Source of the DNA: the human T2T-CHM13v2.0 reference genome, Homo sapiens
Direction: 5' to 3'
Assembly: GCA_009914755.4 (NCBI GenBank)
Contig: CP068257.2
Span: 10,016,001 to 10,080,000 of the forward strand
DNA: 64,000 nt
The translations under genes were made by a program, and so were the position numbers. Shown here in pieces: positions 1 through 34,495 of this stretch. The notes beneath the pieces are model-generated. The model made no database searches. It had not been told where the DNA came from and was given only the letters and a program-made list of their open reading frames with translations. Every line of letters starts with the position of its first letter. The stretch's first letter is position 1.

Positions 1-1447
1 GGTCCATCAAAAGAAAGTTTCAACTCTGTGAGATGAATGCACCCATCACGAAGAAGTTTCTCAGAATGTTTCCATCTAGGTTTATGTGAAGATATTTCCT
101 TTTCCACCACAGGTCTCAAAGCGCTCCAAATGTCCACATGAAGATTCTACAAAAAGAGAGTTTCAAAACTGCTCAGTCAAACAAAGGGTTAACTCTGTGA
201 GATGAATGCACACATCACAAAGAAGTTTCTCAGATTGCTTCTGTCTAGATTTTATGTGAAGGTATTTCCTTTTCTACCATAGGCCACCAAGTGCTCCAAA
301 TGCTCACCTGCAGATTCTACAAAAACAGTGTTTCCAAACTGCTCAATCCAAAGAAAGTTTCAACTCTGTGAGATGAACATACACATCACAAAGAAGTTTC
401 TCAGAATGCTTCTGTATAGTTTTTTATGTGAAGATATTTCCTTTTCTACCATAGGCCACAAAGCGCTCCAAATGTCCACTTGCAGATTCTACAAAAAGAG
501 TGTTTCCAAACTGCTCAATGAAAAGAAAGGTTCAATCCTGTGAGATTAACGCACACATCACAAAGAAGTTTCTTGGAATTCTACTGTCTAGTTTTTCTGT
601 TAAGATATTTCCTTTTCCACCATAGGCCTCAAATCGCTCCAAATGTCCACTTGCAGATTCTAGAAAAATAGACTTTCAAAACTTCTCAATGAAAAGAAAA
701 GTTTATCTCTGTGGGATGAATGCACACATCACAAAGTAGTTTTTCAGATTGCCTCTGTCTAGATTTTGTGTGAAGATATTTGCTTTTCCACCATAGACCT
801 CAAAGCGTTCCAAATGTCCTCTTGCAGGTGGTACAAAAATAGAGTTTCAAAACTGCTTCATCAAAACAACGGTTTAATTCTGTCAGATGAATGTACACAT
901 CACAAAGAAGTTTCTCAGATTGCTTCTGTCTAGATTTTATGTGAAGATATTTCATTTTCTGTCATAGGCCGTAAAGCGCTCCAAATGTCCAGTTGCAGAT
1001 TCTACAAAAAGAGTCTTTCCAAACTGCTGACTCAAAAGAAAGTTTCAACTCTGTGAGATGAACGCATACATCACAAAGAAGTTTCTCAGAATTATTCTGT
1101 CTAGTTTTTATGGGAAGATATTTCCATTTCAACCATTGGCCTCAATGCGCTCCAAATGTCCACTTGCAGATTCTACAAAAAGAGAGTTTGAAAACTGCTA
1201 AATCAAAAGAAATATTGAAGTCTGTGAGATGACTGTGCATATCACAAAGAAATTTCTCAGATTACTTCTGTCTAGATTTTATGTGAATATATTCCCTTTT
1301 TTACCAAAGGCCGCAAAGCGCTCGAAATGACAATTTGCAGATTCTACAAAAAGTGTGTTTGCAAACTGCTAAATCAAAAGGAATGTTCAACTCTGTGAGA
1401 TGAACACACACATCACAAAGTTGTTTCTCAGAATATTTCTGCCTAGT
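1..1447 (-). repeat. Alpha satellite array, 171-bp monomers, reverse-complement of the conventional consensus orientation. D-type, dimer-like, alternating ...CAGATTGCTTCTGTCTAGATTTTATG... and ...CAGAATGCTTCTGTATAGTTTTTTATG...
   Basis: 171-bp periodicity is visible directly. Reverse-complemented monomers read ...TTGTAGAATCTGCAAGTGGACATTTGGAGCGCTTTGAGGCCTATGGTGGAAAAGGAAATATCTTCACATAAAA..., which is the alpha satellite consensus. The block starts at the window edge, so the array extends upstream. Confidence 0.95.
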
Positions 1448-2335
1448 TTATTTTTATTTATTTTTATTTTTTATTATTATACTTTAAGTTTTAGGGTACA
1501 TGTGCACATCGTTCAGGTTAGTTACATATATATACATGTGCCATGCTGGTGCGCTGCACCCACTAACTCGTCATCTAGTATTAGGTGTATCTCCCAATGC
1601 TATCCCTCCCCCCTCCCCCCACCCCACAACAGTCCCCAGAGTGTGATGTTCCCCTTCCTGTGTCCATGTGTTCTCATTGTTCAATTCCCACTTATGAGTG
1701 AGAATATGCGGTGTTTGGTTTTTTGTTCTTGTGATAGTTTACTGAGAATGATGATTTTCAATTTCATCCATGTCCCTACAAAGGACATGAACTCATCATT
1801 TTTTATGGCTGCATAGTATTCCATGGTGTATACGTGCCACATTTTCTTAATCCAGTCTATCATTGTTGGACATTTGGCTTGGTTCCAAGTCTTTGCTATT
1901 GTGAATAATGCCGCAATAAACATACGTGTGCATGTGTCTTTATAGCAGCATGATTTGTAGTCCTTTGGGCATATACCCAGTAAGGGGATGGCTGGGTCAA
2001 ATGGTATTTCCAGTTCTAGATCCCTGAGGAATTGCCACACTGACTTCCACAATGGTTGAACTAGTTTACAGTCCCACCAACAGTGTAAAAGTGTTCCTAT
2101 TTCTCCACATCCTCTCCAGCACCTGTTGTTTCCTGATTTTTTAATGATTGCCATTGTAACTGGTGTGGGATGATATCTCATTGTGGTTTTGATTTGCATT
2201 TCTCTGATGGCCAGTGATGATGAGCATTTTTTCATGTGTCTTTTGGCGCATAAATGTCTTCTTTTGAGAAGTGTCTGTTCATGTCCTTCGCCCACTTTTT
2301 GATGGGGTTGTTTGTTGTTTTCTTGTAAATTTGTT
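1448..2335 (-). mobile_element. LINE-1 (young L1PA/L1HS-like) 3' fragment on the minus strand. It carries the ORF2 C-terminus, the 3'UTR and a poly(A) tail, seen as T-rich TTTTTATTTATTTTTATTTTTT at the left end.
   Basis: The sequence matches the reverse-complemented L1 3' end (…TTTAAGTTTTAGGGTACATGTGCACAT…GGGGGGAGGGG polypurine tract…). The minus-strand ORF at 1681-2295 translates to the L1 ORF2 C-terminus (…MIDWIKKMWHVYTMEYYAAIKNDEFMSFVGTWMKL…). Alpha satellite resumes on both sides. Confidence 0.93.
1681..2295 (-). pseudogene. Open 204-aa remnant of the L1 ORF2 C-terminus. It is a 5'-truncated fragment, not a host gene.
   Basis: The ORF-track protein matches L1 ORF2 C-terminal consensus motifs ([43 protein letters not shown]). 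Confidence 0.9.
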
Positions 2336-3050
2336 ATTTGAATATATTTCCTTTTCCACCATAGACCTCAAAGCGTTACAAATGTCCACTTGCAGATCGT
2401 ACAAAGATAGTTTCAAAACTACTTCATCAAAAGAAAGGTTTAACTCTGTCAGATGAATTCTCACATCAGAAAGAATTTTCTCAGATTGCTTCTGTCTAGA
2501 TTTTATGTGAAGATATTTCCTTTTCTGCCACAGGCCACAAAGTGCTCCAAATGTCCACTTGCAGATTCAACAAAAAGAGTGTTTCCAAATGACCCAAACA
2601 AAAGAAAGTTTCAACTCTGTGAGAGGAATGCACACATCACAAAGTAGTTTCTCAGAATTTGTCTTTCTAGTTTTTATGAGAAGATAATTCCTTTTTCACC
2701 ATAGGTCTCAAAGCCTTCCAAATGTACAAATGCAGATTCGACAAAAAGAGAGTTTGAAAACTGCTCAATCAAAAGAAAGGGTTAACTCTGTGAGATGAAT
2801 ACACAAATCACAAAGAAGTTTCACAGATTGCTTCTGTCTAGATTTTATGTGAAGATATTTCCTTTTCTACCATAGACTGTAAAGTGCTCCAAATGTTCAC
2901 CTGCAGATTCTACAAAAAGAGTGTTTCCAAAATGCTCAATCCAAAGAAAGGTTCAACTCTGTGAGATGAACATACACATCACACAGAAGTTTCCCAGAAT
3001 GCTTCTATATAGTTTTTATGTGAAGATATTTCCTTTTCTACCATAGGCCA
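2336..3050 (-). repeat. Alpha satellite, minus orientation, D-type (dimer-like) monomers.
   Basis: The monomer pattern is the same as 1-1447 and continues immediately after the L1 insertion, so the L1 interrupts a single array. Confidence 0.93.
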
Positions 3051-5924
3051 CTCCGTGAGATGAATGCACACATCACAAAGAAGTGTGTCAGAATGCTTCT
3101 GTCTAGTTATTACGTAAAGATACTTCCTTTTCCACCAGACACCAAAAAGCGCTCCAAATGTCCACTTGCAGATTCTACAAAAAGAGTGTTTCAAAGCTGC
3201 TCAATCAAAAGAAAGTTCAACTCTGTGAGATGAATGCACACATCAAAAAGAAGTTTGTCAGAATGCTTCTGTCTGGTTTTTATGTGAAGATATTACCCTT
3301 TCCACCATGGGCCTCAAGGCGCTCCAAATGTCCACATCCAGATTCTACAAAAAGAGCTTTTGAAAGCTGGTCAATCAAAAGAAAGTTTCAACTCTGTGAG
3401 ATGAATGCACACATCACAAAGAAGTTTGTCACAATGCTTCTGTCTAGTTTTTATGTGAAGATTTTTCCTTTTCCACCATTGGTCTCACAGCACTCCAAAT
3501 GTCCACTTGCAGATTCTACAATAACAGTGTTTCAAAGCTGCTCAATGAAAAGTAAGGTTCAACTTTGTGAGATGAATGCACACATGATGAAGACATTTGT
3601 CAAGATGTTTCTGTCTAGTTCTCATGTGAAGATATTTCCTTTTCCACCATAGGCTTCAAATCACTCCAAACGTCCACTTGCAAATAGTACAAAAAGCGTC
3701 TTTCAAAACTCCTCAATCAAAAGTAAGATTCAATTCTGTGAGATGAATGCACACATCACAAAGAAGTTTGGTAGAATGCTTCTGTCTAGTTTTTATGTGA
3801 AGATATTTCCTTTTCCACCATAGGCCTCAAAGTGTTCCAAATGACCACTTGCAGATCCTACAAAAAGAGTGTTTCAAAGCTGCTCAATCTAAAGAAAGGT
3901 TCAACTCTGTGGGATGAATGCACACATCACAAAGAAATTTCTCACCATGCTTGTGTCTAGTTATTAAAGGAAGATATTTCGTTATCCACCATAGGAATCA
4001 AGTTGCTCCAAATGTCTACTTGCAGATTCTACAAAAAGAGTGTTTCAAAACTGCTCAATGAAAAGTAAGTTTCAACCCTGTGACATGAATGCACACATCA
4101 GAAATAAGCTTGTCGGAATGCTTCTGAGTAGTTTTTATGTGAAGATATTTCCTTTTCCACCATATGCCTCAAAGCGCCCCAAATGACCACATGAAGATTC
4201 TGCAAAAAGGGTTTCAAAACTGCTCAACGTAAAGTAAGGTTCAACTCTGTGAGATGAATGCACAAATCACAAAGAAGTTTGTCAGAATTCTTCTGTCTAG
4301 TTTTTACGTTATTTCCTTTTCCACCATAGGCCTCAACGTGCGCAAAATGTCCACTCAGATTCTACAAAAATGGTGTTTCAAAGTTGCTCAATCAAAAGAA
4401 ATGTTCAACTCTGTGAGATGAATGTACCCGTCACAAAGGAGTTTGACAGAATGCTTCTGCATAGTTTTTATGTGAAGGTATTCCTTTTCCACCATTGGCC
4501 TCAAAGCACTCCACATGTCCGCTTGCAGTTTCTACAAAAAGAGTGTTTCAAAACTGCTCAATCAAAAGAAAGGTCCAATTCTGTGAGATGAATGCACACA
4601 TCACAAAATTTTTTCAGAATGCTTCTGTCTAGTTTTTATGTGAAGATATTTCATTTTCCACCATAGGCCTCAAAGCGCTCCAAATGTCTACGTGCAGATC
4701 CTACAAAAAGAGTGTTTCAAATTGGTCATTCAAAACTAATTTTCAACTCCATAAGATGAATGCACCCATTATGACGAAGTTTGTCAGAATCTTTCTCTAT
4801 AGTTTTTATGTGAAGATATTTCCTTTTCCGCCATAGGTCTCAAAGCACTCCAAAAGTTTACTTGCAGATTCTACAAAAACAGTGTTTTTAAGCTGCTCAA
4901 ACAAAAGAAAAGTTCAACTCCGTGAGATGAATGCACACATCACAAAGAAGTTTTTCATTATGCTTATGTCTAGTTTTTATGTGAAGATATTTCCTTTTCC
5001 ATCATAGTCCTCAAAGTGCTCCAAATGTCCAGTTGCAGATTTTACAAAAAGAGTGTTTCAAAACTGCTCAATCAAAAGAAAATTTCAACTCTGTGACATG
5101 AATGCACACATCACAAAGAAATCTCTCAGAATGCTTCTGTCTAATTTTTAATTGAAGATATTTATTTTTCCACCATAGGCCTCAAAGCACTCAAATGTCC
5201 ACTTGCTGATTCTACAAAAAGAGGGTTTCCAAACTACTCAATCAAAAGAAAGGTTCAACTCTGTGAGATAAATGCACACATCACAAAGTAATTTGTCAGA
5301 ATGCTTCTGTCTAGTTTTTATGTGAAGATATTTCCTTCTCCACCATAGGCCTCAAAGCACTCCAAATATCCACTTCCAGATAGTACAAAAAGGGTGTTTC
5401 AAAACTGCTCAATCAAAAGCAATGTTCAACTCTCTGAGATGAATGCACACATCACAAAGAAGTACCTCAGAAAGCTTCTGTCTAGTTTTAATGTGAAGAT
5501 ATTTCCTTTTCCAACATAGGCCTCTTAGGGGCCAAATGTCCACGTGGAAATTCTACAAAGAGTGTTTCAAAACTGCTCAATCAAAAGAAAGATTCAACTC
5601 TGTGAGATGAATGATCACATCACAAAGAATTTTCTAAGAATGATCCTGTCTAGATTTTTTGTGAAGTTTTTACCTTTTCGACAATAGGCCTCAAAGCGCT
5701 CCAAGTGTACACTTGCAGATTCTACAAAAAGAGTTTTTCAAAACTGTTCAATGCAAAGGAAGTTTCAACTCCATGAGATGAATGCACACATCACAAAGGA
5801 GTTTGTCAGAATGTTTCAGAATAGTTTTTATGTGAAGATATTTCCTTTTGCACCATCGGTTGCAAAGCCCTCCAAATGTCCATTTGCAGATTCTACAGAG
5901 AGTGTTTCAAAACTGGTCAATCAA
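3051..5924 (-). repeat. Alpha satellite, minus orientation, K-type monomers. The diagnostic is GTTTGTCAGAATGCTTCTGTCTAG, which is CTAGACAGAAGCATTCTGACAAAC on the other strand.
   Basis: A truncated monomer junction sits at 3051-3062 (CCATAGGCCACT|CCGTGAGATGAATG). From that point on the monomers carry the CTGACAAAC variant. Confidence 0.85.
5911..5924. other. Left copy of the Alu target-site duplication, AACTGGTCAATCAA.
   Basis: An identical 14-mer recurs at 6236-6249, immediately after the Alu poly(A). Confidence 0.9.
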
Positions 5925-6237
5925 GGCCGGGCACGGTGGCTCACGCCTGTAATCCCAGCACTTTGGGAGGCCGAGGCGGGTGGATCATGAGGTCAGGAGA
6001 TCGAGACCATCCTGGCTAAAACGGTGAAACCCCGTCTCTACTAAAAATACAAAAAATTAGCCGGGCGCGGTGGCGGGTGCCTGTAGTCCCAGCTACTCGG
6101 GAGGCTGAGGCAGGAGAATGGCGTGAACCTGGGAAGCGGAGCTTGCGGTGAGCCGAGATTGCGCCACTGCAGTCCGCAGTCTGACCTGGGCGACAGAGCG
6201 AGACTCCGTCTCAAAAAAAAAAAAAAAAAAAAAAAAA
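5925..6237 (+). mobile_element. Full-length AluY (Yb-lineage features) with a poly(A) tail of about 25 nt.
   Basis: The element starts GGCCGGGCACGGTGGCTCACGCCTGTAATCCCAGCACTTTGGGAGGCCGAGGCGGGTGGATCATGAGGTCAGGAGATCGAGACC…. Near the 3' end it has GCAGTCCGCAGTC (the 7-bp duplication typical of Yb8), plus GGGAAGCGG and GAGATTGCGCC. It ends in A25 and is flanked by a perfect TSD. Confidence 0.95.
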
Positions 6238-6249
6238 CTGGTCAATCAA
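6236..6249. other. Right copy of the Alu TSD, AACTGGTCAATCAA. It overlaps the last A's of the tail.
   Basis: Exact match to 5911-5924. Confidence 0.9.
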
Positions 6250-6578
6250 AAGAATGGTTCAACTCTGAGATGAATGCACACATCACAAAGAAGTTTGTCA
6301 GAATGTTTCTGTCTAGTTCCTAAGTGAAGATACTTCCTTTTCGACCATAGGCCTCATAGCGCTCCAAATATCCACTTGCAGATTCTACAGAGAGTTACCA
6401 AATTACTCAATCAAAAGAAATGTTCAACTCTGTGAAATGAGTGCACACATCTCAAAGAAATTTGTTAGAATGCTTCTGTCTAGTTTTTATGTGAAGATAT
6501 TTCCTTATCCACCATAGGCCTCAAAGCACTCCAAAAGTCCACTTGCAGATAGCACAAAAATTGTGTTTCAGAACTGGA
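6238..6578 (-). repeat. Alpha satellite, minus orientation, K-type. These are the last monomers before the strand switch.
   Basis: The repeat pattern simply continues after the Alu. Confidence 0.9.
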
Positions 6579-9500
6579 CAGAAACACTCTGACAAACTTC
6601 TTTGTGATGTGTGCCTTCATCTCACGGAGTTGAACATTTCTGTTGATTGAGCAGTTTTAAAACACTATTTTTGTAGATTCTATAAGTGTACAATTGGAGC
6701 GCTTTGAGGACTATGGTGGAAAAGGAAATATCTTCACATAAAAATTAGACAGAAGCATTCTGACAAACTGCCTTGTGATGTGTGCATTCATCTCACAGAG
6801 TTGAACATTTCTTTTGATTGAACAGCTTTGAAACACTCTTTTTGTACAATCTGCAAGTGGACATTTGGAGCACTTTGAGACCCATGGTGGAGAAGGAAAT
6901 ATCTTCACATAAAAACGAGAAAAAAGAATTCTGAGAAACTCCTTTGTGTTGAGTGTGTTAATCTCACACAGTTGAGCCTTTCTTTTTATTGAGCAGTTTG
7001 GAAACACTCTTTTGGTAGAACCTGCAAGTGGACATTTGGAACAATTTCAGGCATATGGTGAAAAAGGAAATATATTCACATAAAAACTAGACAGAAGCGT
7101 TCTGACAAACTTCTATGTGATATGTGCATTCATCTCACCGTGGTGAAACTTTGTTTTGATTGAGCAGCTTTGAAACACTCTTTTTGTAGTATATGCAAGT
7201 GGACATTTGGAGCGCTTTGAGGCCTATAGTGGATAACCAAATATATTCATATAATAACTAGACAGAAGCATTTTGAGAAACTTCTTTGTGATGTGTGAAT
7301 TCATCTCACACTGATTTGAACCTTTCTTTTGATTGATCATCTTTGAAACACTCTTTTTGTAGAATCAGCAAGTGGATATTTGGAGCGCTTTGAGGCCTAT
7401 GGTGGAAAAGGAAATATCTACACATAAAAACCAGACAGAAGCATTCTGACAAACTTCTTTGTGATGTGTGCATTCATCTCACAGAATTGAACCTTACTTT
7501 TCATTGAGCAGTTTTGAAACACTCTTTCTGTAGAATCTGCTAGTGAGCAATTGGAGGACTTTGAGTCCTATTGAGGAAAAGGAAATGTCTTCATATAAAA
7601 ACTAGAAAGAAGCCTGCTGAGAAACTTCTTTGTGATGTGCGCATTCATCTCACAGGGTTAAACCTTGCTTTTCATTGAGAAGCTTTGAAACACTCTTTTT
7701 GTAGAATCTACAAGTGGACATTTGGAGCACTATGAGGCCTATGGTGGAAAAGGAAATATCTTCACATAAAAACTAGACAGACTATTCTCACAAACTTCTT
7801 TGTGTTGTGTGCATTCATCTCACAGAGTTGAACCTTACTTTTCATTGAGAAGTTTTGAAACACTCTTTTTGTAGTATCTGCAAGTGGACATTTGGAGCGC
7901 TTTGAGGCCTATGGTGGAAAAGTAAATATCTTCAGGTAAAAAGTAGACAGATGCATTCTGAGAAACTACTTTGTGATGTGTGCATTCATCTCACAGAGTT
8001 GAACCTTTCTTTTGATTGAACAACTTTGAAACACTCTTTTTGTAGAATCTGCAAGTGGACATTTGGAGAGCTTTGAGGCCTATGGTGGAAAAGGAAAAAT
8101 CTTCACATAAAAACTAGACAGAAGCATTCTGACAAACTTCTTTGTGATGTGTGCACTCATCTCACAGAGTTGAACCTTATTTTTCATTGAGCAGTTTTGA
8201 AATACTCTCTTTGTAGAATCTGCAAGTGGACATTTCGTGCGCTTTGAGGCCTATGGTGGAAAAGGAATTATCTTCACATAAAAACTAGACAGAAGCATTC
8301 TGACAACCTTCTTTGTGATATGTGCATTCATCTCACAGAGTTGAACCTTACTTTCGATTGAGCAGTTTTGAAACACTCTCTTTGTAGAATCTGCAAGTGG
8401 ACATTTGCTGCACTTTGAGGCCTATGGTGGATAACAAAATATCTTCATATAATAACTAGATGGAAGCATTATGAAAAACTCCTTTATGATGTGTGCTTGC
8501 ATCTTACAGAGTGGAACCTTTCTTTTGATTGAGCAGCTCTGAAACACTCTTTTTGTAGCATCTGCAATTGGACATTTGGAGTGCGTTGAGGCCTTTGGTG
8601 GAAAAGGAAATATCTGCACATAAAAACCAGAAAGAAGCTTTCTGACAAACTCCTTTGTGATGTGTGAATTCATCTCACAGAATTGAACCTTACTTTTGAT
8701 TGAGCAGTTTTGAAACACCCGTTTTGTAGTATCTACAAGTGGACATTTGGAGTGCTTTGAGGCCTATGGTGGAAAAGGAAATATTTTCACATAAGAATTA
8801 GGCAGAAGGATTCTGAGAAATTCCTTTTTGATGTGTGCATTCATCTCACAGAGTTGAACCTTACTTTCGATTAAGCAGTTTTGAAACACTCTTTTTTGTA
8901 GAATCTGCAAGTGGACATTTGCTGCACTTTGAGGCCTATGGTGGTTAATGAAATATCTTCATATAATAACTAGACAGAAGCATTATGCCAAACTTCTTTA
9001 TGATGTGTGCATTCGTCTCACAGAGTGGAACCTTTCTTTTGATTGAGAAGCTCAGACACACTCTTTTTGTAGCATCTGCAATTGGACATTTGGAGCGCTT
9101 TGAGGCCTTTGGTGGAAAAAGGAAATATCTTCACATAAAAACCAGAAAGAAGCTTTCTGACAAACTTCTTTGTGATGTGTGCCTTCAGCTCACAGAGTTG
9201 AACCTTTCTTTTGATTGAGCAATTTGGAAACCCTCTTTTTGTAGAATCTGCAAGTGGACATTTGGAGTGCTTTGAGGCCTATGGTGGAAAAGGAAATATC
9301 TTCACATAAGAACTAGGCAGAAAGATTCTGAGAAATTCCTTTGTGATGTGTGCATTCATCTCACAGAGTTGAACCTTACTTTCGATTGAGCAGTTTTGAA
9401 ACACTCTTTTTTGTAGAATCTGCAAGTGGACATTTGCTGCACTTTGAGGCCTATGGTGGTTAATGAAATATCTTCATATAACAACTAGACAGAAGCATTA

Positions 9501-12500
9501 TGACAAACTTCTTTGTGATGTGTGCATTCGTCTCACAGAGTGGAAACTTTCTTTTGATTGAGCAGCTCTGAAACACTCTTTTTGTATAATCTGCAATTGG
9601 ATATTTGGAGTGCTTTGAGGCCTTTGGTGGAAAAGGAAATATCATCACATAAAAACCAGACAGAAGCATTCTGACAAACTCCTTTGTGATGCGTGCATTC
9701 ATCTCATGGAATTGAACCTTACTTTTCATTGAGCAGTTTTGAAGCACTCTTTTTGTAGAATCTACAAGTGGACATTTGGAGCACTTGAGAGCTATGGTTG
9801 AAAAGGAGATATCTTCACATAAAAACTAGACAGAAGCATTCTGACAAACTTCTTTGTAATGTGTGCATTCACATCACAGAGTTGAACCTTACCTTCAATT
9901 GAGCTGTTTCAAAACACTCTTTTTGTAGAATCTGCAAGTGGACATTTGAAGCACTTGAGGCCTATGTTGGAAAAGGAAATATCTCCACATAAAAATTAGA
10001 CAAAAGCATTCTGACAAACTTCTTTGTGATGTGTACATTCATGTCACAGAGTTGAACCTTACTTTTGATTGAGCAGTTTTGAAGCACCCTTTTGGTAATA
10101 TCCACAAGTGGACATTTGGAGTGCTTTGAGACCTTTGGTGCAAAAAGAAATATCTTCACATAAGAACTAAACAGAAGCATTCTGACAAATTTCTCTGCGA
10201 TGGGTGCATTCATCTCACAGATTTGAACTTTATTTTGATTAAGCAGCTTTGAAACACTGTTTTTGTAAAATCTGCAAGTGGACATTAGGAGCGCTTTGAG
10301 GCCTATGTTGGATAACGAAATATCTTGACGTAAAAACTAGATAGACGCATTCTGACATACATCTTTGTGATGTGTGCATTAATCTCTCAGAGTTGAAACT
10401 TAATTTTCATTCAGAAGTTTTGAAATACTCTTTTTGTACTATCTGCAAGTGGACATTTGGAGCGCTTTGAGGCCTATGGTGGAAAAGTAAATATCTTCAC
10501 ATAAAAACTAGACAGAAGCATTCTGACAAACTTCTTTGTGATGTGTGCATTTATCTCACAGAGTTGAACCTTACCTTTCATTCAGCAGTTCTGAAACACT
10601 CTTTTTGTTGAATCTGCATTTGGACATTTGGAGAACTTTGAGGCCAATGGTGGAAAAGGAAATATCTTCACATAAAAACTAGACAGAAGCATTGTGACAA
10701 CCTTCTTTGTGACATGCGCATTCATCTCACAGAGTTGAACCTTACTTTTGATTGAGCAGTTTTGAAACACCCTTTTTGTAATGTCTGCAACTGGACATTT
10801 GGAGTGCTTTGAGGCCTATGGTGGAAAAGGAAATATCTTCACATAAAAACCAGACAGAAGCATTCTCACAAACTTCTTTGTGATGTGTGCATTTATCTCG
10901 CAGAGCTGGACCATTCTTTTGATTGAGCAGCTTTGAAACACTCTTTTTGTAGAATCTGCAATTGGACATTTGGATCACTTTGAGGCCTATGGTGGAAAAG
11001 GAAATATCTTCAGATAAAAACTAGACAGAAGCATTTTGAAAAACTTCTTTGTGACGTTTGCATTCATCTCACTGACTTGAACCTTTCTTTTGATTGAGCA
11101 GTTTTGAAAAAGTATTTTATAGAATCTGCATGTGGACATTTGGAGCGCTTTGAGGCCTATGGTAGAAAAGAAAATATCTTCACATGAAAACTACACAGAA
11201 GAATTCTGACAAACTTCTTTGTGATGTGTGCATTCATCTCACAGAGTTGAACCTTTCTTTTGATTGAGCAGCTTTGAAACACCCTATTTGTAAAATCTGC
11301 AAGTGAACATTTGGTGCGCTTTGAGGTCTCTGGTGGAAAAGAAAATATCTTCACATACAAACTAGACAGAAGCATTCTGACAAACTACTTTGTGATTTGT
11401 GCATTCATCTCACAGAGTTGAACCTTTCTTTTGATTCAGCGGGTTTGAAACACCCTTTTTGTAGAATCTGCAAGTGAACATTTGGAGCACTTTGAGGCTG
11501 ATGGTGGAAAAGGAAATATCTTCACATAAAAACTAAACAGACGTATTCTGACAACCTTCTTTGTGATGTGTACATTCATCTCACAGAGTTGAAACTTACT
11601 TTTGATTGAGCAGTTTTGAAACATCCTTTTTGTGCTATCTGCAAGTGGACATTTGGAGTGCTTTGAGTCCTATGGTGGAAAAGGAAATATCTTCACATAA
11701 GAACTAGACAGAAGCATTCTGAGAAATTTCTTTGTGATGTGTGCAATCATCTCACACAGTTGAACCTTACTTTTGATTGTCCAGTTTTGAAAAACTCTTT
11801 TTGTAGAATCTGAAAGTGGACATTTGGAGAGCTTTGAGGCCTATGATGGATAACGAAATATCTTCATATAATAAATAGAGAGAAGCATTATGTTAAACTT
11901 TTTGTGATGTCTGCATACATCTCACAAAGAATTGAAACTTTCTTTTGATTGAGCAGCTTTGCAACATTCTTTTTGTGGAATCTGCAAGTGGACATTTGGA
12001 GTGCTTTGAGACCTATGGTGGATAACGAAATATGTTCACATAAAAATTGGACAGAAGCATTCTGAGAAACTTCTTTGTGATGTGTGCATTCATCTCACAG
12101 AGTTGAACCTCCCTTTTGATTGAGCACTTTGGAAGCACTCTTTCTGTAAAATCTGCAAGTGGACAATTGGAGTGCTTTGAGGCCTATGGTGGAAAAGGAA
12201 ATATCTTCACATAAGAACTAGACAGAAACATTCTGAGAAATTTCTTTGTGATGTGTGCAATCATCTCACAGAGTTGAACCTTACTTTTGATTGTCTAGTT
12301 TTGAAAAACTCTTTTTGTAGAATCTGAAAGTGGACATTTGGAGCGCTTTGAGTCCTATGATGGATAACGAAATATCTTCATATAATAAATAGAGAGAAGC
12401 ATTATGATAAACTTTTTGTGATGTCTGCATACATCTCACAAGGAGTTGAAACTTTCTTTTGATTGAGAAGCTTTGCAACATTCTTTTTGTAGAATCTGCA

Positions 12501-15100
12501 AGTGGACATTTGGAGTGCTTTGAGGCCTATGGTGGATAACGAAATATGTTCACATAAAAATTGGACAGAAGCATTCTGAGAAACTTCTTTGTGATGTGCG
12601 CATTCATCTCACAGAGTTGAACCTCCCTTTTGATTGAGCACTTTGGAAGCACTCTTTCTGTAAAATCTGCAAGTGGACAATTGGAGTGCTTTGAGGTCTA
12701 TGGTGGAAAACGAAATATCTTCACATAAAAATTGGACAGAAGCATTCTGAGAAACTTCTTTGTGACGTGTGCATTCATCTCACAGAGTTGAACCTCCCTT
12801 TTGATTGAGCACTTTCGAAGCACTCTTTCTGTAAAATCTGCAAGTGGACAATTGGAGTGCTTTGAGGCCTATGGTGGAAAAGGAAATATCTTCACTTAAA
12901 AACTAGACAGAAGCATTCTGACAAACTTCTCTGTGATGTGTGCATTCATCTCACAAAGAATTGAAACTTTCTTTGATTCAGGAGCTTTGAAACACTCTTT
13001 TTGTAGAATCTGCAAGTGTACATTTGGAGCGCTTTGAGGCCTATGGTGGAAAAGGGGACATCTTCACATATAGAACAGACAGAAGCATTCTGACAAACTT
13101 CTTTTCGATGTGTGCGTTCAACTCACAGATTTGAACCTTACTTTTCATTGAGCAGATATGAAACACTCCTTTTGTAGAATCTGCAAGTGGACAATTGGAC
13201 CGCTTTGTGGCCTATGGTGGAAAAGGATATATCGTCACATAAAAACTAGACAGAAATCTTCTGACAAACTTCTTTGTTATGTGTGCATTCATCTTTCAGA
13301 GTTGAACCTTTCTTTTGATTGAGCAACTTTGAAACACTGTTTTTGTAGAATCTGCAAGTAGTCATTTGGAGCGCTTTGGGGCCTATGGCAAAAAAGGAAA
13401 TATCTTCACATAAAAACTAGACAGAAGCATTCTGACAAACTTCTTTGCGATGTGTGTATTCATCTCACAGAGTTGAACCTTACTTTTCATTGAGCAATTT
13501 TGAAACACTCTTTTTGGAGAATCTGTAAGTGGACATTTTGAGGGCTTTGACGCACATGGTGGAAAAGGAAATACCTTCACATAAAAATTGGACAGAAGCA
13601 TTCTGACAAACTACTTTGTAATGTGTGCATTCATCTCTCAGAGCTGGACCTTTCTTTTGATTGAACAGCTTTGAAACACTCTTTTTGTAGAATCTGCAAG
13701 TGGACATTTGGAGCGCTTTGAGGCCTATGGTGGAAAAGGAAATATCTTCACAGAAAAACTAGACAGAAGCATTCTGACAAACTTCTTTGTTATGTGTGCA
13801 TTCATCTCACAAAGAATTGAAACTTTCTTTGATTCAGGAGCTTTGAAACACTCTTTTTGTAGAATCTGCAAGTGTACATTTGGAGCGCTTTGAGGCCTAT
13901 GGTGGAAAAGGGAACATCTTCACATATAGAACAGACAGAAGCATTCTGACAAACTTCTTTTCGATGTGTGCGTTCAACTCACAGATTTGAACCTTACTTT
14001 TCATTGAGCAGATATGAAACACTCTTTTTGTAGAATCTGCAAGTGGACAATTGGACCGCTTTGTGGCCTATGGTGGAAAAGGATATATCGTCACATAAAA
14101 ACTAGACAGAAATCTTCTGACAAACTTCTTTGTTATGTGTGCATTCATCTTTCAGAGTTGAACCTTTCTTTTGATTGAGCAACTTTGAAACACTGTTTTT
14201 GTAGAATCTGCAAGTAGTCATTTGGAGCGCTTTGGGGCCTATGGCAAAAAAGGAAATATCTTCACATAAAAACTAGACAGAAGCATTCTGACAAACTTCT
14301 TTGCGATGTGTGCATTCATCTCACAGAGTTGAACCTTACTTTTCATTGAGCAATTTTGAAACACTCTTTTTGGAGAATCTGTAAGTGGACATTTTGAGGG
14401 CTTTGACGCACATGGTGGAAAAGGAAATACCTTCACATAAAAACGAGACAGAAGCATTCTGACAAACTACTTTGTAAAGTGTGCATTCATCTCTCAGAGC
14501 TGGACCTTTCTTTTGATTGAACAGCTTTGAAACACTCTTTTTGTAGAATCTGCAAGTGGACATTTGGAGCGCTTTGAGGCCTATGGTGGAAAAGGAAATA
14601 TCTTCACAGAAAAACTAGACAGAAGTATTTTGAAAAACTTCATTGTGACGTTTGCATTCATCTCACTGATGTGAACCTTTCTTTTGATTGAGCAGTTTTG
14701 AAAAACTCTTTTTGTAGGATCTGCATGTGGACATTTGGATCGCTTTGAGGCCTATGGAGGAAAAGAAAATATCTTCACCTAAAAACCATACAGAAGTATT
14801 CTGAGAAACTTCTTTGTGATGTGTGCATTCATCTCACAGAGTTGAACCTTACTTTTCATTGAGCAATTTTGAAACACTCTTTTTGGAGAATCTGCAAGTG
14901 GACATTTGGAGGGCTTTGACGCACGTGGTGGAAAAGGAAATATCTTCACATAAAAACTAGACAGAAGCATTCTGACAACCTTCATTGTGATATGTGCATC
15001 CATCTAAGAGAGTTGAACCTTACTTTTGATTCAGCAGTTTTGAAACTCTCTTTTTGTAGAATCTGCAAGTGGACATTTGGAGCACTTTTAGACCTATGGT
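6579..15100 (+). repeat. Alpha satellite in the conventional plus orientation, K-type monomers (…AGACAGAAGCATTCTGACAAACTTCTTTGTGATGTGTGCATTCATCTCACAGAGTTGAACC…).
   Basis: The orientation flips at 6578/6579 (…GTGTTTCAGAACTGG|ACAGAAACACTCTGACAAACTTCTTTGTGATGTGTGC…). The block contains local HOR-like duplications (see findings). The boundary to D-type around 15.0-15.6 kb is gradual, so the end coordinate is approximate. Confidence 0.9.
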
Positions 15101-18100
15101 GGAAAAGGAAATATCTTCACATAAAAACTAGACAGAACAATTCTGAGAAACTTCTTTGGGATGTGTGCATTCATCTCACAGAGTAAAACATTCTTTTGAT
15201 CCAGCAGTTTTGTAAGTATCTTTTTGTAGAATCTGCAAGTGGACATTTTGAGCCCTTTCAGGCCTATGGTGGAAACGGAAATATCTACAAATTGAAACTC
15301 GGCAGAAGAATTCTGAGAAACTCCTTTGTGATGCTTGCATTCATGTAACAGAGTTGAACCTTTCTTTATGATTGATCAGTTTGGAAACCCTCTTTTTTAG
15401 AATCTGCCAGCGGATATTTGGAGCGTTTTGCAGCCTATGGTGGAAAAGGAAATATCTTCACATGAAAACTAAATAGATGTATTCTGAGAAACTTCTATGT
15501 GATGTGTGCGTTCATCTCACAGAGTTGAACCTTTCTTTTGATTGAGCAGTTTGGAAACACTCTTTTTGTAGAATCTGCAAGTGGACGTATGGAATGCTTT
15601 GAAGCCTATGGTAGAACAGGAAATATCTTCACATAAAATCTGAACAGAGGAATTCTGAGAGACTCCTTTGTGATGTTTGTATTCATCTTACAGAATTAAA
15701 GCTTCCTTTTGAATGAGCAGATTTGAAACTGTCTTTTTGTAGAATCTGCAAGTGGACATTTTGAGCGCCTGGAGGCCTATGGTGGAAAAGAAAATGGCTT
15801 CACATGAAAACTAGACAGAAGAATTCTGAGAAACTTCTTTCTTATGTGTGCGTTAATCTCACACAGTTGAACCTTTCTTTTGATTGAGCAGTTTCAAACA
15901 CTCTTTTTGTAGAATCTGCAAGTGGACTTTTGGAGCACTTTGTGGCCTACGGTAGAAAAGGAAATATCATCACATAAAATCTAGACAGAAGCAATCTGAG
16001 ACTTCTTTGTGATGTGTGCATTCACCACACATTGTGTAACCTTTCCCTTGATTGAGCAGTTTTGAAACTCTTTTTGTAGAATCTACAAGTCTACATTTGG
16101 AGTGCTTTGAGACCTATGGTAGAAAAGGAAATATCTTCACATAAAAACTAGTCAAAAGAATTCTGAGAAACTTCTTGTTGATGTGTGTGTTCACCTCACA
16201 GAGTTGAACCGTTGTTTTGATTGAGCAGTTTGGAAACCCTCTTTTTGTAGAATCTGCATGTGGACATTTGGAGCGCTTTGAGGCCTATGGTGGAAAAGGA
16301 AGTATCTTCACATAAAAACTAGACAGAAGAATTCTGAGAAACTTCTTTGTGATGTCTGCATTTATCTCACAGACTTGAACCTTTCTTTTGATTGAGCAGT
16401 TTGGAAACACTCTTTTTGTAGAATCTGCAAGGGGACATTTGGAGCGGTTTACACCCTATGATAGAAAAGGAAATATCTTCACATAGAATATAGACAGAAG
16501 CAATCTGAGAAACTTATTTCTGATGTGTGAATTCATCTCACAGAGTTAAACATTTCTTTTGATTGAGCAGTTTGGAAACAATCTTTTTGAAGAATCTGCA
16601 AGTGAACATTTGGAGAGCTTTGTGGCATATGATAGTAAAGGAAATATCTTCAAATAAAATTTAGAGGAAGAAATCTGAGAAATTGCTTTTGATGTGTGCA
16701 TTCATGTCACAGAATTAAAGCTTTCTTTTGATTAAGCAGTTTTGAAACTCTCTTTTTGTAGAATCTGCAAGTGGACATTTGGAAATCTTTGAGGCCTGTG
16801 TTAGAAAAAGGAAATATCATCACATAAAAACTAGATAGAAGCAATCTGAGAAACTTTGGTGTGACATGTGAATTCATCTCCCAGAGTTGAAACATTCTTT
16901 TGATGGAACAGTGTTGATATACTCTTTTGGTAGAATCTGCAAGTGGACATTTCAAATTCATTGAGTCTTATGGTGGAAAAGGAAATATCTTTACATAAAA
17001 ACTAGACAGAAAAATCCTGGGAAACTTCTTTGTGATGTGTGCATTCATCTCACAGAGTTGAACCTTTCTTTTGAATGAGCAGTTTGGAAACTCTCTTTTT
17101 GCAGAATCTTCAAGTGGACATTTGGAGCGCTTTGAAGCCTATGGTAGAAAAGGAAATATCTTCACATAAAATCTACACAGAAGCAATCTGAGAAACTTCT
17201 TTGTGATGTGTGCATTCATCACACCGTGTTAAACCTTTCTCTTGACTGAGGAGTTTTGAAACTTACTTTTTGTAGTATCTGCAAGTGGTCATTTGGAGCG
17301 CTTTGAGGACTATGGTGGAAAAGGAAATATCTTCACATAAAAACCAGACAGAATAATTCTGAGAAACTTCTTTGTGATGAGTGAGTTCATCTCACAGAGT
17401 TGAACCTTTCTTTGATTGAGCAGTTTGGAAGCACTCTTTTTGTACAATCTGCAGGTGGATATTTGGAGCGCTATGCTGCCTATGGTAGAAAACGAAATAT
17501 CTTCACATAAAATCAGGACAGAAGCAATCTGAGAAACATCCGTTTGATGTGTGCGTTAATCTCACAGAGTTAAATCTTTCTTTTGATTGAGCAGTTTTGA
17601 AACTCTCTTTTTGTAGAATCTGCAAGTGGACATTTGGAGCGCTTTTAGAACTATGGTGGAAAAGGAAATATCTTCACAAAAATCTGGACAGAAGACTTCT
17701 GAGAAACTTCTTTGTGATGTGTGTATTCATCTCACGGAGTTGAACCTTTCTTTTGATTGAACAGTTTTGAAATGCTCTTTTTGTAGAATCTTCAAGTCAG
17801 CATTTGGAGTGCTTTGAGGACCATAGTGGAAAAGGAACTATCTTCACATAGAAACTAGACAGAAGAATGCTGACAGACATCTTTTTGACGTTCGTTAATC
17901 TCACAAGGTTGAGCCTTTCTTTTGATTGAACAATTTGGAAAATCTCTTTTTGTTGAATCTGCATGTGGACATTTGGAGCGCTTTGAGGCCTATGGTGGAA
18001 AAGGAAGTATCTTCACATAAAACTAGACAGAAGAATTCTGAGAAACTTCTTTGTGATGTGTGCGTTTATCTCACAGACTTGAACCTTTCTTTTGATTGAG

Positions 18101-18316
18101 CAGTTTGGAAACACTCTTTTTGTAGAATCTGCAAGGGGACGTTTGGAGCGGTTTGCGCCCTATGATAGAAAAGGAAATATCCTCACATAAAATATAGACA
18201 GAAGCAATCTGAGAAACTTGTTTCTCATGTTTGCATTCATCCACAGAGTTAAACGTTTCTTTTGATAGAGTAGTTTTGAAACACTCTTTTTGTAGAATCT
18301 GCAAGTGGACATTTTT
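15101..18316 (+). repeat. Alpha satellite, plus orientation, D-type dimer-like monomers (AAAACTAGACAGAAGAATTCTGAGAAAC alternating with AAAATCTAGACAGAAGCAATCTGAGAAAC).
   Basis: The alternating monomer signatures are visible at about 15.6-18.3 kb. Confidence 0.85.
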
Positions 18317-21300
18317 AATGCAGACATCACAAAGTAGTTTCTCAGATTGCTTCTGTCTAGATTGTATGTGAAGATATTTCTTTTTCTACCATAGACTCCA
18401 AAGCGATCCAAATGTCCACTTGCAGATTCTACAAAAAGAGTGTTTCCAAACTGTTCAACCAAAAGAAAGTTCAACTCTGTGAGATGAATGCACGCATCAC
18501 AAAAAAGTTTCTCAGAGTTCTTCTGTCTAGTTTTTATGTGAAGATAATTTATTTTCCAATATAGGCCTCAAGGTGCTCGAAATGTCCACTTGCAGGTTCT
18601 ACAAAAGAATATTTCAAAACTGGTCCATCAAAAGAAAGGTTTAACTCTGTGAGATGAATGCAAACATCACAAAGAAGTTTCTCAGATTGCTTCAGTCTAG
18701 ATGTCATGTGAAGATATTTCCTTTTCTACCATAGCCTGCAAAACGCTCCAAATGTCCACTTTCAGATTCTACAAAAAGAGAGTTTCAAAACTGCTCCATC
18801 AAAATAAAGGTCCAACTCTGTCAGATGAATGCACACATCACAAAGAAGTTTCTCTTCTTGCTTCTGTCTAGATTGTATGTGAAGATATTTCTTTTTCCAC
18901 CATACACCTCAAAGCACTCCAAATGTCCACTTGAAGATTCTATAAAAAGAGAGTTTCAAAGCTCTTCAATCAGAAGAAAGGTTCAACTCTGTGAGATGAA
19001 TGCACACTTCACAAAGAAGTTTCTCAGATTTCTTCTGTATAGATTTTATGTTATGATATTTCTTTTTCTACCATAGGCCTCAAAGCGCTCCAAATGTCCA
19101 CTTGCAGATTCTACAAAAAGAGAGTTTCAAAACTTCTGAATTAAAAGAAAGGTTTAACTCTGTGAGATGAATGAACACATCACTAGGATGTTGCTCAGAT
19201 TGCTTCTGTCTAGATATTATGTGAAGATATTTCCTTTTCTATCATAGGCCGCAAAGCGCTCCAAATGTCCACTTGCAGATTCTACAAAAAGAATGTTTCC
19301 AAGCTCCTCATTCAAAAGAAAGATTGAACTCTGTCAGATGAACGCACACATCACAAAGAAGTTTCTCAGAATTCTTTTGTCTAGTTTTTATGTGAAGATA
19401 TTTCCTTTCCCACCATAGTCCTCAAAGTGCTCCAAATGTCCACTTGCAGATTCTACAGAGAGTTTCAAAGCTCCTTCATCAAAAAAAAAAATGTTAACCT
19501 CTTTCTGATGAATGCACACATCACAAAGAAGTTTCTCAAATTGCTTCTGTCTAGATTTTGTCTGAAGATATTTCCTTTTCTGCCACAGACTGCAAAGCAC
19601 TCCAAATATCCATTTTCAGATTCTACAAAAAGACTCTTTCCAAACTCTTCAATCAAAAGAAAGGTTCAACTCTGTAAGATGAACGCAGACATCACAAAGA
19701 TGTTTCCCAGAATTCTTCTGTCTAGTTTTTATGTGAAGATATTTCATTTTCCACCAGAGGCCTCAAGGTGCTCAAATTGTCCACTTGCAGATTCTACAAA
19801 AAGAGAGTTTCAAAACTGCTCAATCAAAAGAAAGCTTTAACTCTGTGAGATGAATGCACACATCACAAAGAAGTTTCTCAGATTGCTTCTGTCTACAATT
19901 TATGTGAAGATATTTCCTTTTATGCTATAGGCCCCAAAGCGCTCCAAATGTCCACTTGCAGATTCTACAAAAAGAGAGTTTCCAAACTGCTCAATCTAAA
20001 GGAAGGTTCAACTCTGTGAGAACAATGCACGCATCACAAAGAAGTTTCTCAGAATTCTTCTGTCTAGTTTTTATGTGAAGATACGTTATTTTCCACCATA
20101 GGCCACAAAGCACTCTACATATCCACTTGAAGATTCTACAAAAAGAGAGTTTCAAATCTGCTCCATCAAAGGAAAACTTCAACCCTCTGAGATGAATGCA
20201 CCAATCACAAAGAAGTTTATCAGATTACTTCTGTTTATATTTTATATGAAGATATTTCCTTTTCCAATATAGGCCTCAAAGTGCTCCAAATATCCACTTG
20301 TAGGTTTTACAAAAAGAGAGTTTCAAAACTGTTAAATCAAAACAAAGCTTTAACTCTGTGAGATGAATGCACACATCACAAAGAAGTTTCTCAGATTGCT
20401 TCTGTCCAGATTTTATGTGAAGATATTTCCTTTTCTACCATAGGCCGCAAAACGCTCTAAATGTCCACTTGCAGATTCTACAAAAAGAGTGTTTCCAAAC
20501 TGCTCAATCAAAAGAAAGATTCAACTCTGTTAGATGAATGCACACATCGCCAAGTCGTTTCTCAGAATTCTTCTGCCTAGTTTTTATTTGAAGATATTTG
20601 CTTTCCAACCATAGTCCTCAAAGCGCTCCAAATGTGCACTTGCAGATTCTACAAACAGAGAGTTTCAAAACTCGTGCATCAAAAAAAGTTTACCTCTTTC
20701 AGATGAATGAACACATCACAAAGAAGTTTCTCAGATTGCTTTTGTCTAGATTTTGTCTGAAGATATTTCCTTTTCTGCCATAGGCCACAAAGCGCTCCAA
20801 ATATCCACTTGCAGATCCTACAAAAAGAGTGTTTCTGAACTCCTCAATCAAAAGAAAGTTTCAACTCTGTGAGATGAATGCACACATCACAAGGAAGTTT
20901 CTCAGAGTTCTTCTGATTTGTTTTTATATGAAGATATTTCCTTTTCTGTCATAGGCCTTTAAGCGTTCCAAATATCCACTTGAAGATTCTACAGAAAGAG
21001 AGTTTCCAAAGGGCTCAATCAAAAGAAAGTTTTAACTCTGTGAGATGAATGCACACATCACAAAGAAGTTAATCAGATTGCTTCTGTCTAGATTTTATGT
21101 GAGGATATTTCTTTTTCCAGCCTAGGCCGCACAGCACTCCAAATGTCCTCCTGAAGATTCTACTACAAAAGTTTTTCCAAACTGCTCAATAAAAAGAAAG
21201 GTTCAACTCTGTGAGATGAATGCACACATCACAAAGTAGTTTCTCAGAATGCTTCTGTCTAGTTTTTATGCGAAGATATTTCCTTTTCCACCGTAGGCCT

Positions 21301-31842: not shown

Positions 31843-31900
31843 TGTGAGCTAAGATTGTGTCACTGCACTCCAGTCTGGGTGACAGAGGTAGACCAGTCGA
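31843..31900 (+). mobile_element. Alu right-arm 3'-tail fragment of about 60 bp, embedded in the pentameric satellite (copy 1).
   Basis: TGTGAGCTAAGATTGTGTCACTGCACTCCAGTCTGGGTGACAGAGGTAGACCAGTCGAAATAAA compared with the Alu consensus GTGAGCCGAGATCGCGCCACTGCACTCCAGCCTGGGCGACAGAGCGAGACTCCGTCTCAAAA. Confidence 0.85.
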
Positions 31901-34431: not shown

Positions 34432-34495
34432 TGTGAGCTAAGATTGTGCCACTGCACTCTAGTCTGGGAGACAGAGTGAGATATAGTCGAAGTAA
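34432..34495 (+). mobile_element. Alu 3'-tail fragment embedded in the pentameric satellite (copy 3).
   Basis: TGTGAGCTAAGATTGTGCCACTGCACTCTAGTCTGGGAGACAGAGTGAGATATAGTCGAAGTAAAAG, with the same conserved flanks. Confidence 0.85.

What the first reader, a model, noticed from the sequence alone, without database searches (positions are those of the whole stretch)
6540..6620. Alpha satellite strand switch 1 (minus to plus) inside a single monomer subfamily, with mirror-ordered subfamilies around it
At 6578/6579 the array flips orientation. The sequence is …CTTGCAGATAGCACAAAAATTGTGTTTCAGAACTGG|ACAGAAACACTCTGACAAACTTCTTTGTGATGTGTGC….

K-type monomers (CTGACAAAC variant) lie on both sides. Moving outward from the breakpoint the order is K then D on both arms: D(-) 1-3050, K(-) 3051-6578, then K(+) 6579-15100, D(+) 15101-18316. 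That is the signature of an inversion or an inverted duplication inside an array, not two unrelated arrays meeting.

The junction joins different monomer phases, about 'GCAG|TTTTGAAACAC' on the left to 'AGACAGAAGCATTCTGACAAAC' on the right. So it is a simple breakpoint, not a perfect palindrome.

In T2T-type assemblies, strand switches inside alpha arrays are seen at only a limited number of centromeric sites. They delimit evolutionary layers or rearrangements.
Basis: seen in the sequence. Interest (0 to 1): 0.5.

Follow-up and report, generated by a model that had tools for sequence, protein, structure and literature searches.

The report
Old strand flip in decayed alpha satellite
The 171-bp centromeric repeat array really does reverse direction at about position 6576/6577, inside one repeat subfamily. 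This is an ordinary, long-known kind of scar in old, inactive alpha satellite and has no sign of function.

Summary
Strand-aware HMM annotation, an independent motif count and BLAST all show monomeric, A-type alpha satellite switching from the minus to the plus strand. It can be placed anywhere in 6569-6577 because AACT at 6572-6575 fits both arms. The two arms meet out of phase (monomer position 87 against position 12).

The same homogeneous 'K' monomer family (C at position 28) lies on both sides.

The mirror exists only at family level. No register-specific (palindromic) homology links the K arms or the D arms. The left D/K boundary is a phase break, while the right one is seamless.

Undoing the plus block 6577-18315 as a single inversion restores neither monomer phase nor family continuity. 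The best reading is therefore an ancient, microhomology-joined, inverted-duplication-type event. It would have happened while K was still homogeneous and was followed by independent decay of each arm. Several successive inversions remain a rival explanation.

The literature shows that strand switches are common in divergent alpha satellite: about 90% of alpha-satellite switches lie in monomeric regions.

Interest is low. Assembly error could not be tested.

The parts
6569..6577 (.). Strand-switch junction. The best breakpoint is 6576|6577. AACT at 6572-6575 fits both arms, a 4-bp microhomology.
   Evidence: Breakpoint scan against the K consensus extrapolated from each side. Sequence read directly. 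The junction 30-mer is unique in the window.
3051..6576 (-). Left arm: monomeric 'K' alpha satellite on the minus strand, about 19 monomers. It ends at monomer position 87 and is interrupted by an Alu at 5926-6237.
   Evidence: nhmmer hits. Class assignment. Position-28 C in 13/19 monomers.
6577..15118 (+). Right arm: monomeric 'K' alpha satellite on the plus strand, 50 monomers, starting at monomer position 12. It contains late tandem duplications: 12897-13749 matches 13752-14605, and there are 3-monomer repeats across 11696-12893.
   Evidence: TRF reports a 171-bp period over 6572-18314.
3..3050 (-). Outer left block: dimeric 'D' alpha satellite (D1/D2 alternating) on the minus strand, interrupted by an antisense L1 3' fragment at 1451-2339.
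15120..18315 (+). Outer right block: dimeric 'D' alpha satellite on the plus strand, joined to K in phase.
3050..3051 (.). Phase-breaking junction between D(-) and K(-). Monomer position 141 is joined to position 65, so about 76 columns are missing.
   Evidence: nhmmer partial hits 3022-3051 (HMM 141-170) and 3050-3112 (HMM 3-65). Sequence.
18315..18316 (.). Next strand switch, plus to minus, inside the D family. Monomer position 131 (+) is joined to position 53 (-).
5926..6237 (+). Alu insertion in the left arm. It has a 25-A tail and a 14-bp target-site duplication, aactggtcaatcaa, at 5911-5924 and 6238-6251.
   Evidence: Sequence read directly. nhmmer gap of 310 bp. The Yb-like subfamily call rests on my memory of diagnostic bases.

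Best explanation
This is a genuine, ancient and functionless rearrangement scar in a 'dead' (non-HOR, divergent) layer of primate alpha satellite.

Shown:
- The array reverses orientation at 6576|6577 inside one homogeneous monomer family (K).
- The two arms meet out of monomer phase, with 4 bp of shared sequence (AACT).
- A dimeric family (D) lies outside K on both arms, in the matching orientation.

Inferred:
- The palindromic order D(-)K(-)|K(+)D(+) was most likely made by an inverted-duplication-type event. A break or stalled fork in the K array would have been followed by fold-back or template switching onto the opposite strand, primed at a short microhomology.
- This happened while the K array was still nearly homogeneous, so no monomer-by-monomer register was there to be preserved.
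- After that, every monomer decayed independently in a star-like pattern.
- Each arm then acquired its own changes: a deletion that created the 3050|3051 phase break and shortened the left K arm, an Alu insertion, and tandem duplications that lengthened the right arm.

The junction does nothing today. It is a marker of history.
For: - Orientation flip.
- One family on both sides: the arm consensuses differ at 1 of 170 columns, the monomers mix, and between-arm identity (84.9%) lies between the within-arm values of 83.7% and 86.1%. Position-28 C is enriched only in these two blocks.
- Star-like decay: monomers differ by 8-9% from the consensus and by about 15% from each other. Divergence shows no gradient with distance from the junction.
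- Microhomology and out-of-phase join.
- A single two-break inversion of 6577-18315 fails. Reverting it would put K next to D at both restored junctions and would join monomer positions 87->131 and 12->53 instead of consecutive positions.
- A single inversion of a collinear, layer-symmetric D-K-D array cannot yield D(-)K(-)|K(+)D(+). This is reasoning from the block map.
- The arms are only 82-84% complementary. This rules out a technical fold-back read, which would give near-identical arms.
- Arm-specific later events.
- Inversions, deletions, TE insertions and HSat expansions are the documented decay signature of dead alpha layers. This window carries all of them.
Against: - No anti-diagonal or local palindromic register shows raised identity between the arms, for K or for D. 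The duplication is therefore inferred from block order alone.
- D-left is not specially related to D-right.
- The two K/D boundaries differ in structure, so an extra deletion has to be assumed.
- Four bases of microhomology in diverged, AT-rich sequence is weak evidence.
- D is not measurably older than K by within-class identity: about 84-86% for both. That makes it harder to explain why the D arms also lack register.
- No read-level or second-assembly support for the junction could be obtained.
Confidence: 0.5

Rival explanations
1. Several successive inversions and deletions, without any duplication, scrambled a once collinear layered array of the form X-D-K-D-X. The 6576|6577 junction would be one end of one of these inversions. 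Its partner breakpoint would lie outside the window or would have been deleted, for example at 3050|3051.
For: - The window has at least four rearrangement junctions in its first 37 kb: 3050|3051, 6576|6577, 18315|18316 and the HSat/L1 interval at 31-37 kb.
- All D blocks and both K blocks behave as samples of single families with no paralogous register. That is what splitting, as opposed to copying, would give.
- The literature describes many inversions in divergent alpha satellite.
Against: Treating the blocks as a signed permutation of X-D-K-D-X, I needed about four reversals, or breakpoint re-use at 3051, to reach the observed order. An inverted duplication needs one event plus one deletion. 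This is reasoning from the map, not a computed minimum.
Confidence: 0.25
2. A single simple inversion of the 11.7-kb plus-strand block 6577-18315 occurred within a minus-strand array. The two switches would be its two ends.
For: The plus block is flanked on both sides by minus-strand alpha satellite. This is the simplest picture at first sight.
Against: Reverting it places K next to D at both restored junctions. It joins monomer positions 87->131 and 12->53 instead of consecutive positions. The ancestral order would then be D-K-D-K-D-X.
Confidence: 0.08
3. The switch is an assembly artefact: a chimeric join of two K-family stretches, or a misjoined contig end.
For: No external copy of the junction could be found, so the junction rests on this one sequence.
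Against: - The arms are only 82-84% complementary, so it is not a fold-back read artefact.
- Monomers here are about 15% divergent, which makes the region easy to assemble with long reads.
- A random misjoin would not be expected to land inside the same family with matching flanking families.
- Nothing unusual, such as Ns, adaptor or low complexity, appears at the join.
Confidence: 0.07
4. Two unrelated arrays from different loci were brought together in opposite orientation by translocation or insertion.
For: The join is out of phase and lacks register homology.
Against: The left and right K consensuses are essentially identical and the monomers mix on nearest-neighbour tests. The same outer family is present on both sides. 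However, suprachromosomal families are shared between chromosomes, so the same family does not strictly prove the same locus.
Confidence: 0.05

Closest known systems
Inversion breakpoints (strand switches) in divergent/monomeric alpha satellite layers, as catalogued for T2T-CHM13 and later pangenome surveys
   Same: - 171-bp A-type monomers without a higher-order repeat (HOR), about 15% pairwise divergence.
- L1 and Alu insertions and an adjacent HSat block.
- Several orientation changes within tens of kb.
- This is the 'post-mortem' decay signature described.
   Different: Nothing essential differs. The only particular feature is that the flanking families are arranged palindromically around the switch.
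Polymorphic megabase inversion inside the live chromosome 1 HOR array (1.7 Mb)
   Same: The orientation change lies within a single alpha-satellite family, not between families.
   Different: That inversion sits in a homogeneous, active HOR array and is polymorphic and megabase-sized. This one sits in a dead monomeric layer, has kb-scale blocks, and its population status is unknown.
Fold-back inverted duplications and template-switch (FoSTeS/MMBIR-type) junctions in genomic disorders and gene amplification (named from general knowledge)
   Same: Head-to-head arms, an out-of-register join and a few bases of microhomology at the junction.
   Different: Such events leave arms that are reverse complements of each other in a fixed register. 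No register is detectable here.
Mirror-symmetric layering of alpha-satellite families around a centromere (Shepelev et al. 2009, PMC2729386; Altemose et al.)
   Same: The same family order is seen moving outward on both sides (K, then D).
   Different: In the layered-expansion model I expect the two flanks to keep the same strand. I infer this from the model; it is not stated in the passages I read. Here the flanks are on opposite strands, so layering alone does not explain the pattern.

Membership tests
Alpha satellite (primate centromeric 171-bp repeat) | Tandem head-to-tail monomers of about 171 bp | tested here: met
   TRF reports a period of 171 across all blocks. Mean monomer spacing is 169.7-171.1 bp per block. 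nhmmer finds 302 monomer hits.
Alpha satellite (primate centromeric 171-bp repeat) | Presence of an A-type (pJalpha) or B-type (CENP-B box) site in each monomer | tested here: met
   All five class consensuses carry CTATGGTGGAAAAGGAA. The A-box motif has 51 exact hits, all strand-consistent. The CENP-B core NTTCGNNNNANNCGGGN has 0 hits. Both motif definitions are recalled from the literature.
Monomeric / divergent ('dead') alpha satellite layer | No higher-order repeat periodicity, with monomers roughly 15-25% divergent from each other | tested here: met
   Identity is flat at 83-87% for monomer offsets 1-12 in both K arms. Block mean identities are 80-86%. Only local, recent 3- and 5-monomer duplications are present.
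Monomeric / divergent ('dead') alpha satellite layer | Carries TE insertions, inversions and other satellite expansions | tested here: met
   Alu. Three L1 pieces. A (TGGAA)n block at 31070-35574. Three orientation changes.
Live/homogeneous HOR array | Multi-monomer units repeated at more than 95% identity | tested here: not met
Inverted duplication / palindrome | Mirror order of sequence blocks on opposite strands around a centre | tested here: met
   D(-)K(-)|K(+)D(+).
Inverted duplication / palindrome | Arms are reverse complements in one fixed register, with identity above the family background | tested here: not met
   Anti-diagonal means are 81.6-84.9% with no peak. The best local anti-diagonal segments are no better than the control diagonals. 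The D arms behave likewise. All BLAST HSPs of at least 500 bp fall at 73.5-84.4% identity, and the top-scoring ones sit in many different registers.
Simple two-break inversion (6577-18315) | Reverting the segment restores monomer phase and family continuity at both ends | tested here: not met
   Phases 87->131 and 12->53, with K|D at both restored joins.
Named suprachromosomal family (SF4-SF18) of the K, D and X monomers | Match to curated class consensus or HMM (HumAS-HMMER / PERCON) | not testable with these tools
   No class models or consensus sequences were available in the papers read. The only clue is that the 171-bp length and pure A type put K nearer the 'old' 171-bp M1-like group than the 172-bp 'ancient' layers. 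This is a lead, not a test.

The most novel reading that the evidence does not exclude
The head-to-head K arms, which have identical consensus but no register, might be a fossil of an ancestral centromere array that already carried an internal inversion or palindrome while it was still active and being homogenised. The present-day chromosome 1 array is a comparable case. A stronger version is that fold-back (breakage-fusion-bridge-like) inverted duplication was itself the step that seeded and amplified the K layer in the middle of D. The strand-reversed mirror symmetry would then record how a new centromere layer was born.
Probability: 0.1. Interest if true: 0.4.

Novelty: already known. Interest (0 to 1): 0.12.

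Why it matters
It matters little on its own. Strand switches in divergent alpha satellite are numerous and are annotated routinely in complete assemblies.

The useful points are practical:
- The junction is a unique sequence marker for this pericentromeric locus.
- The block map shows that neither a single inversion nor a recent inverted duplication explains the pattern.
- It corrects the assumption that such switches are rare.

If comparison with other apes dated the event to the time the K array was live, it would add one example to the thin record of rearrangements inside ancestral active centromeres.

Tried and rejected
1. External copies of the junction. Exact 24-mer scans of metagenome contigs and genome contigs returned three loci. 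They are not alpha satellite: none of the three gives a BLAST match to the window, and L001, the only one inspected, reads like ordinary non-repetitive, probably bacterial DNA. These are chance matches and say nothing about the junction.

2. Junction-spanning ORFs. The 46-aa minus-strand ORF and the 35-aa plus-strand ORF are not on record in the assembly collection. The 46-aa peptide has no homologue in the protein database. No independent assembly support was obtained.

3. Palindromic register. I tested whole-arm anti-diagonals and local 3-8-monomer segments against control diagonals. I also tested the D arms and every other pair of D blocks, and ran raw BLAST. There was no signal anywhere.

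4. Special kinship of D-left and D-right. None was found.

5. Divergence gradient away from the junction. None was found.

6. Single inversion of 6577-18315. Rejected on phase and family continuity.

7. Fold-back sequencing artefact. Rejected because the arms are only 82-84% complementary.

8. The apparent 60-bp overlap of the minus and plus nhmmer hits at 6570-6641. The ungapped comparison shows the minus-phase match collapses after 6576, so it is a weak over-extension of the minus-strand alignment. I attribute that to partial dyad symmetry within the monomer, which I did not test. It is not a real shared segment.

9. Naming the suprachromosomal families.

Full report
**What the window is.** Tandem Repeats Finder reports 171-bp arrays over most of the 64 kb. 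It also finds a (TGGAA)n block at 31070-35574. A monomer HMM built from the window finds 302 monomer hits. The runs are:
- minus strand 3-1450 and 2340-6576
- plus strand 6577-18315
- minus strand 18316-31053
- plus strand 37308-53960 and 60164-64000

All class consensuses carry the A-type box, and no CENP-B core motif is present. Identity against monomer offset is flat at 83-87%, so there is no higher-order repeat. The arrays are interrupted by:
- an Alu
- an antisense L1 3' fragment at 1451-2339
- an antisense L1 5' part at 35575-37307
- a sense L1 of about 6.2 kb at 53961-60163

This is the standard picture of a divergent, 'dead' pericentromeric alpha-satellite layer. The Alu has features I recall as diagnostic of the Yb lineage, including the GCAGTCC duplication. 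That suggests human, but I could not test it.

**The observation.** The strand switch is real. The evidence comes from three independent methods:
- Per-monomer nhmmer E-values of about 1e-28 to 1e-49 on the stated strands.
- Strand-specific counts of the A-box motif: 6/0 on the left of the junction and 0/20 on the right.
- 234 of 234 BLAST HSPs between the two sides lie on opposite strands.

To place the breakpoint, I extrapolated the K consensus without gaps from each side and scored every candidate position. The optimum is 6576|6577. Positions 6569-6577 score within one match of it, because AACT at 6572-6575 fits both arms. The minus arm ends at monomer position 87 and the plus arm begins at position 12. 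The junction 30-mer is unique in the window.

**The subfamily map.** PCA of the aligned monomers and class consensuses separate three families:
- K, a homogeneous monomeric family. Its single private change from every other class consensus is C at position 28. It also differs from each of them at that class's own positions, 5-8 differences in all.
- D, a dimeric family with D1 and D2 alternating.
- X, a second dimeric family with X1 and X2 alternating.

K occupies 3050-6576 (-) and 6577-15118 (+). D occupies 3-3049 (-), 15120-18315 (+), 18316-22635 (-) and 37308 to about 46700 (+). X occupies 22636-31053 (-) and about 46700-64000 (+).

Position-28 C is present in 13/19 and 33/50 monomers of the two K blocks, and in 0-2 monomers in each other block.

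The two K arms are one family. Their consensuses differ at one near-tied column. No column differs significantly after correction for 680 tests. 15 of 16 left-arm monomers have their nearest neighbour in the right arm.

**Tests of the 'inverted duplication' reading.** An inverted duplication made after the monomers had diverged should leave one anti-diagonal register with raised identity. None exists:
- Whole-arm anti-diagonal means run from 81.6 to 84.9% without a peak.
- The best 3-8-monomer anti-diagonal segments are no better than the wrong-orientation control diagonals.
- The D arms show the same lack of signal.
- All BLAST HSPs of at least 500 bp fall at 73.5-84.4% identity, and the top-scoring ones sit in many different registers.
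- D-left is not closer to D-right than to the other D blocks.

K monomers sit 8-9% from their consensus and about 15% from each other. That is a star-like pattern, and it shows no gradient with distance from the junction.

I make a rough power estimate from these numbers. The spread of the anti-diagonal means is about 0.5-1%. A duplication later than roughly the first 15% of the decay period would therefore have raised paralogue identity by more than 2.5% and been seen. Any duplication must date to when the array was still nearly homogeneous.

**Tests of the 'simple inversion' reading.** Reverting the plus block 6577-18315 would put K against D at both restored junctions. It would also join monomer positions 87->131 and 12->53 instead of consecutive positions. 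So the two switches are not the clean ends of a single inversion.

From the block map, a single inversion of a collinear D-K-D layered array gives K|D junctions. It does not give the observed K|K and D|D junctions.

The two K/D boundaries are also unlike each other. The left one, 3050|3051, is a phase break that joins position 141 to position 65. The right one, 15118/15120, is in phase.

**Most likely history.** The sequence of events below needs the fewest steps. The first step is inferred; the later ones rest on features seen in the sequence.
1. An inverted-duplication-type event (fold-back or template switch at the AACT microhomology) occurred while K was still homogeneous. It produced D(-)K(-)|K(+)D(+).
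2. All monomers then decayed independently.
3. Arm-specific changes followed:
   - a deletion at 3050|3051 that shortened the left K arm
   - the Alu insertion at 5926-6237
   - late tandem duplications in the right arm, namely 12897-13749 against 13752-14605 at 97.6-100% identity, and 3-monomer repeats across 11696-12893
4. The switch at 18315|18316 and the HSat/L1 interval are further, separate events.

The main rival is a series of inversions and deletions without any duplication. It fits the lack of register equally well but needs more steps. Assembly error cannot be excluded without reads. It is unlikely to be a fold-back read artefact, because the arms are only 82-84% complementary.

**Comparison with what is known.**
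- Altemose et al. state that diverged alpha satellites are known to contain many inversions, and they quantify breakpoints per Mb.
- Reviews list inversions among the decay marks of dead arrays.
- A 2026 survey finds about 89.6% of alpha-satellite strand switches in monomeric regions.
- The rare cases are inversions in live HOR arrays. [quoted passage not shown]

The finding is an instance of a known and common feature. The palindromic family order is a modest curiosity.

**Attempts at outside evidence.** These all failed:
- The exact junction 24-mer matched only DNA unrelated to alpha satellite.
- Junction-spanning ORFs are not in the assembly index.
- The 46-aa junction peptide has no homologue in the protein database.
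- The suprachromosomal family names of K, D and X could not be assigned with the tools and texts available.

**Verdict.** The feature is of a kind already known, and interest is low (0.12).

Noticed in passing
window 18315-18316: A second strand switch, plus to minus, also lies inside a single family (D on both sides). Monomer position 131 is joined to position 53. Together with 6576|6577 it delimits an 11.7-kb plus-strand block, but the two are not the clean ends of one inversion.
   Followed up: partly
window 3050-3051: The left D/K boundary is a phase break: monomer position 141 is joined to position 65, with about 76 columns missing. The mirror boundary at 15118/15120 is in phase. TRF sees the resulting 94-bp pseudo-period at 2956-3137.
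   Followed up: partly
window 31054-37307: A third orientation change occurs across non-alpha DNA. Minus-strand alpha ends at about 31053. It is followed by 4.5 kb of degenerate (TGGAA)n HSat-like repeat at 31070-35574. Next comes an antisense L1 piece at 35575-37307 covering L1 positions about 945-2688 (ORF1 plus the ORF2 endonuclease start). That piece lacks its 3' part and directly abuts the HSat block. Plus-strand alpha then begins at 37308.
   Followed up: partly
window 6576 and 37308: Two independent alpha-satellite break points fall at the same monomer position, 87 (CAGTTTTGAAAC). One is the end of the minus arm at the strand switch. The other is the start of the plus array next to the L1 5' end. 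This may be coincidence, or it may reflect a fragile or L1-endonuclease-like TTTT/A site. It was not tested.
   Followed up: no
window 5926-6237: An Alu with a pure 25-A tail and a perfect 14-bp target-site duplication (aactggtcaatcaa). It carries the GCAGTCC duplication and other bases I recall as diagnostic of the Yb lineage. That would suggest a young insertion and a human origin for the window.
   Followed up: partly
window 53961-60163: A sense-strand L1 of about 6.2 kb with broken ORFs (Pfam RVT_1 and Transposase_22). It is flanked by a duplicated AAAAACTACACAG alpha-satellite target site. The other two L1 pieces in the window are about 92% identical to it.
   Followed up: partly
window 1451-2339: An antisense L1 3' fragment that aligns to positions 5317-6197 of the full element at 91.9% identity. 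It has a T-rich tail remnant at 1447-1478 and splits the left D block.
   Followed up: yes
window 11696-14776 and 8790-9646: There are late local tandem duplications inside the plus K arm. A 5-monomer unit, 12897-13749, matches 13752-14605 at 97.6-100% identity. Repeats with 3- and 4-monomer spacing across 11696-12893 match at 97-98.8%. A 3-monomer unit, 8790-9132, matches 9305-9646 at about 93-98%. The dead array therefore still changed length after it diverged.
   Followed up: partly
window 3-3049, 15120-22635, 37308-46700 (D); 22636-31053, 46700-64000 (X): Both outer families are dimeric, pure A-type, 171-bp alpha satellite, with two monomer classes alternating imperfectly. The D-to-X transition occurs once on each strand, at 22636 and at about 46700. 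The D-then-X order reads the same way left to right on both strands, so these two halves are not mirror images of each other.
   Followed up: partly
window 24360-24468, 28399-28486, 28207-28760: The minus-strand X array holds further partial monomers or phase breaks. It also holds a 278-bp unit duplicated at 95% identity (TRF).
   Followed up: no
L001 6007-6030, L002, L003: The exact 24-mer spanning the junction also occurs in three contigs from metagenome and bacterial-genome collections, none of which matches the window by BLAST. This is a reminder that exact k-mer hits in very large collections need checking before they are read as copies of the locus.
   Followed up: yes
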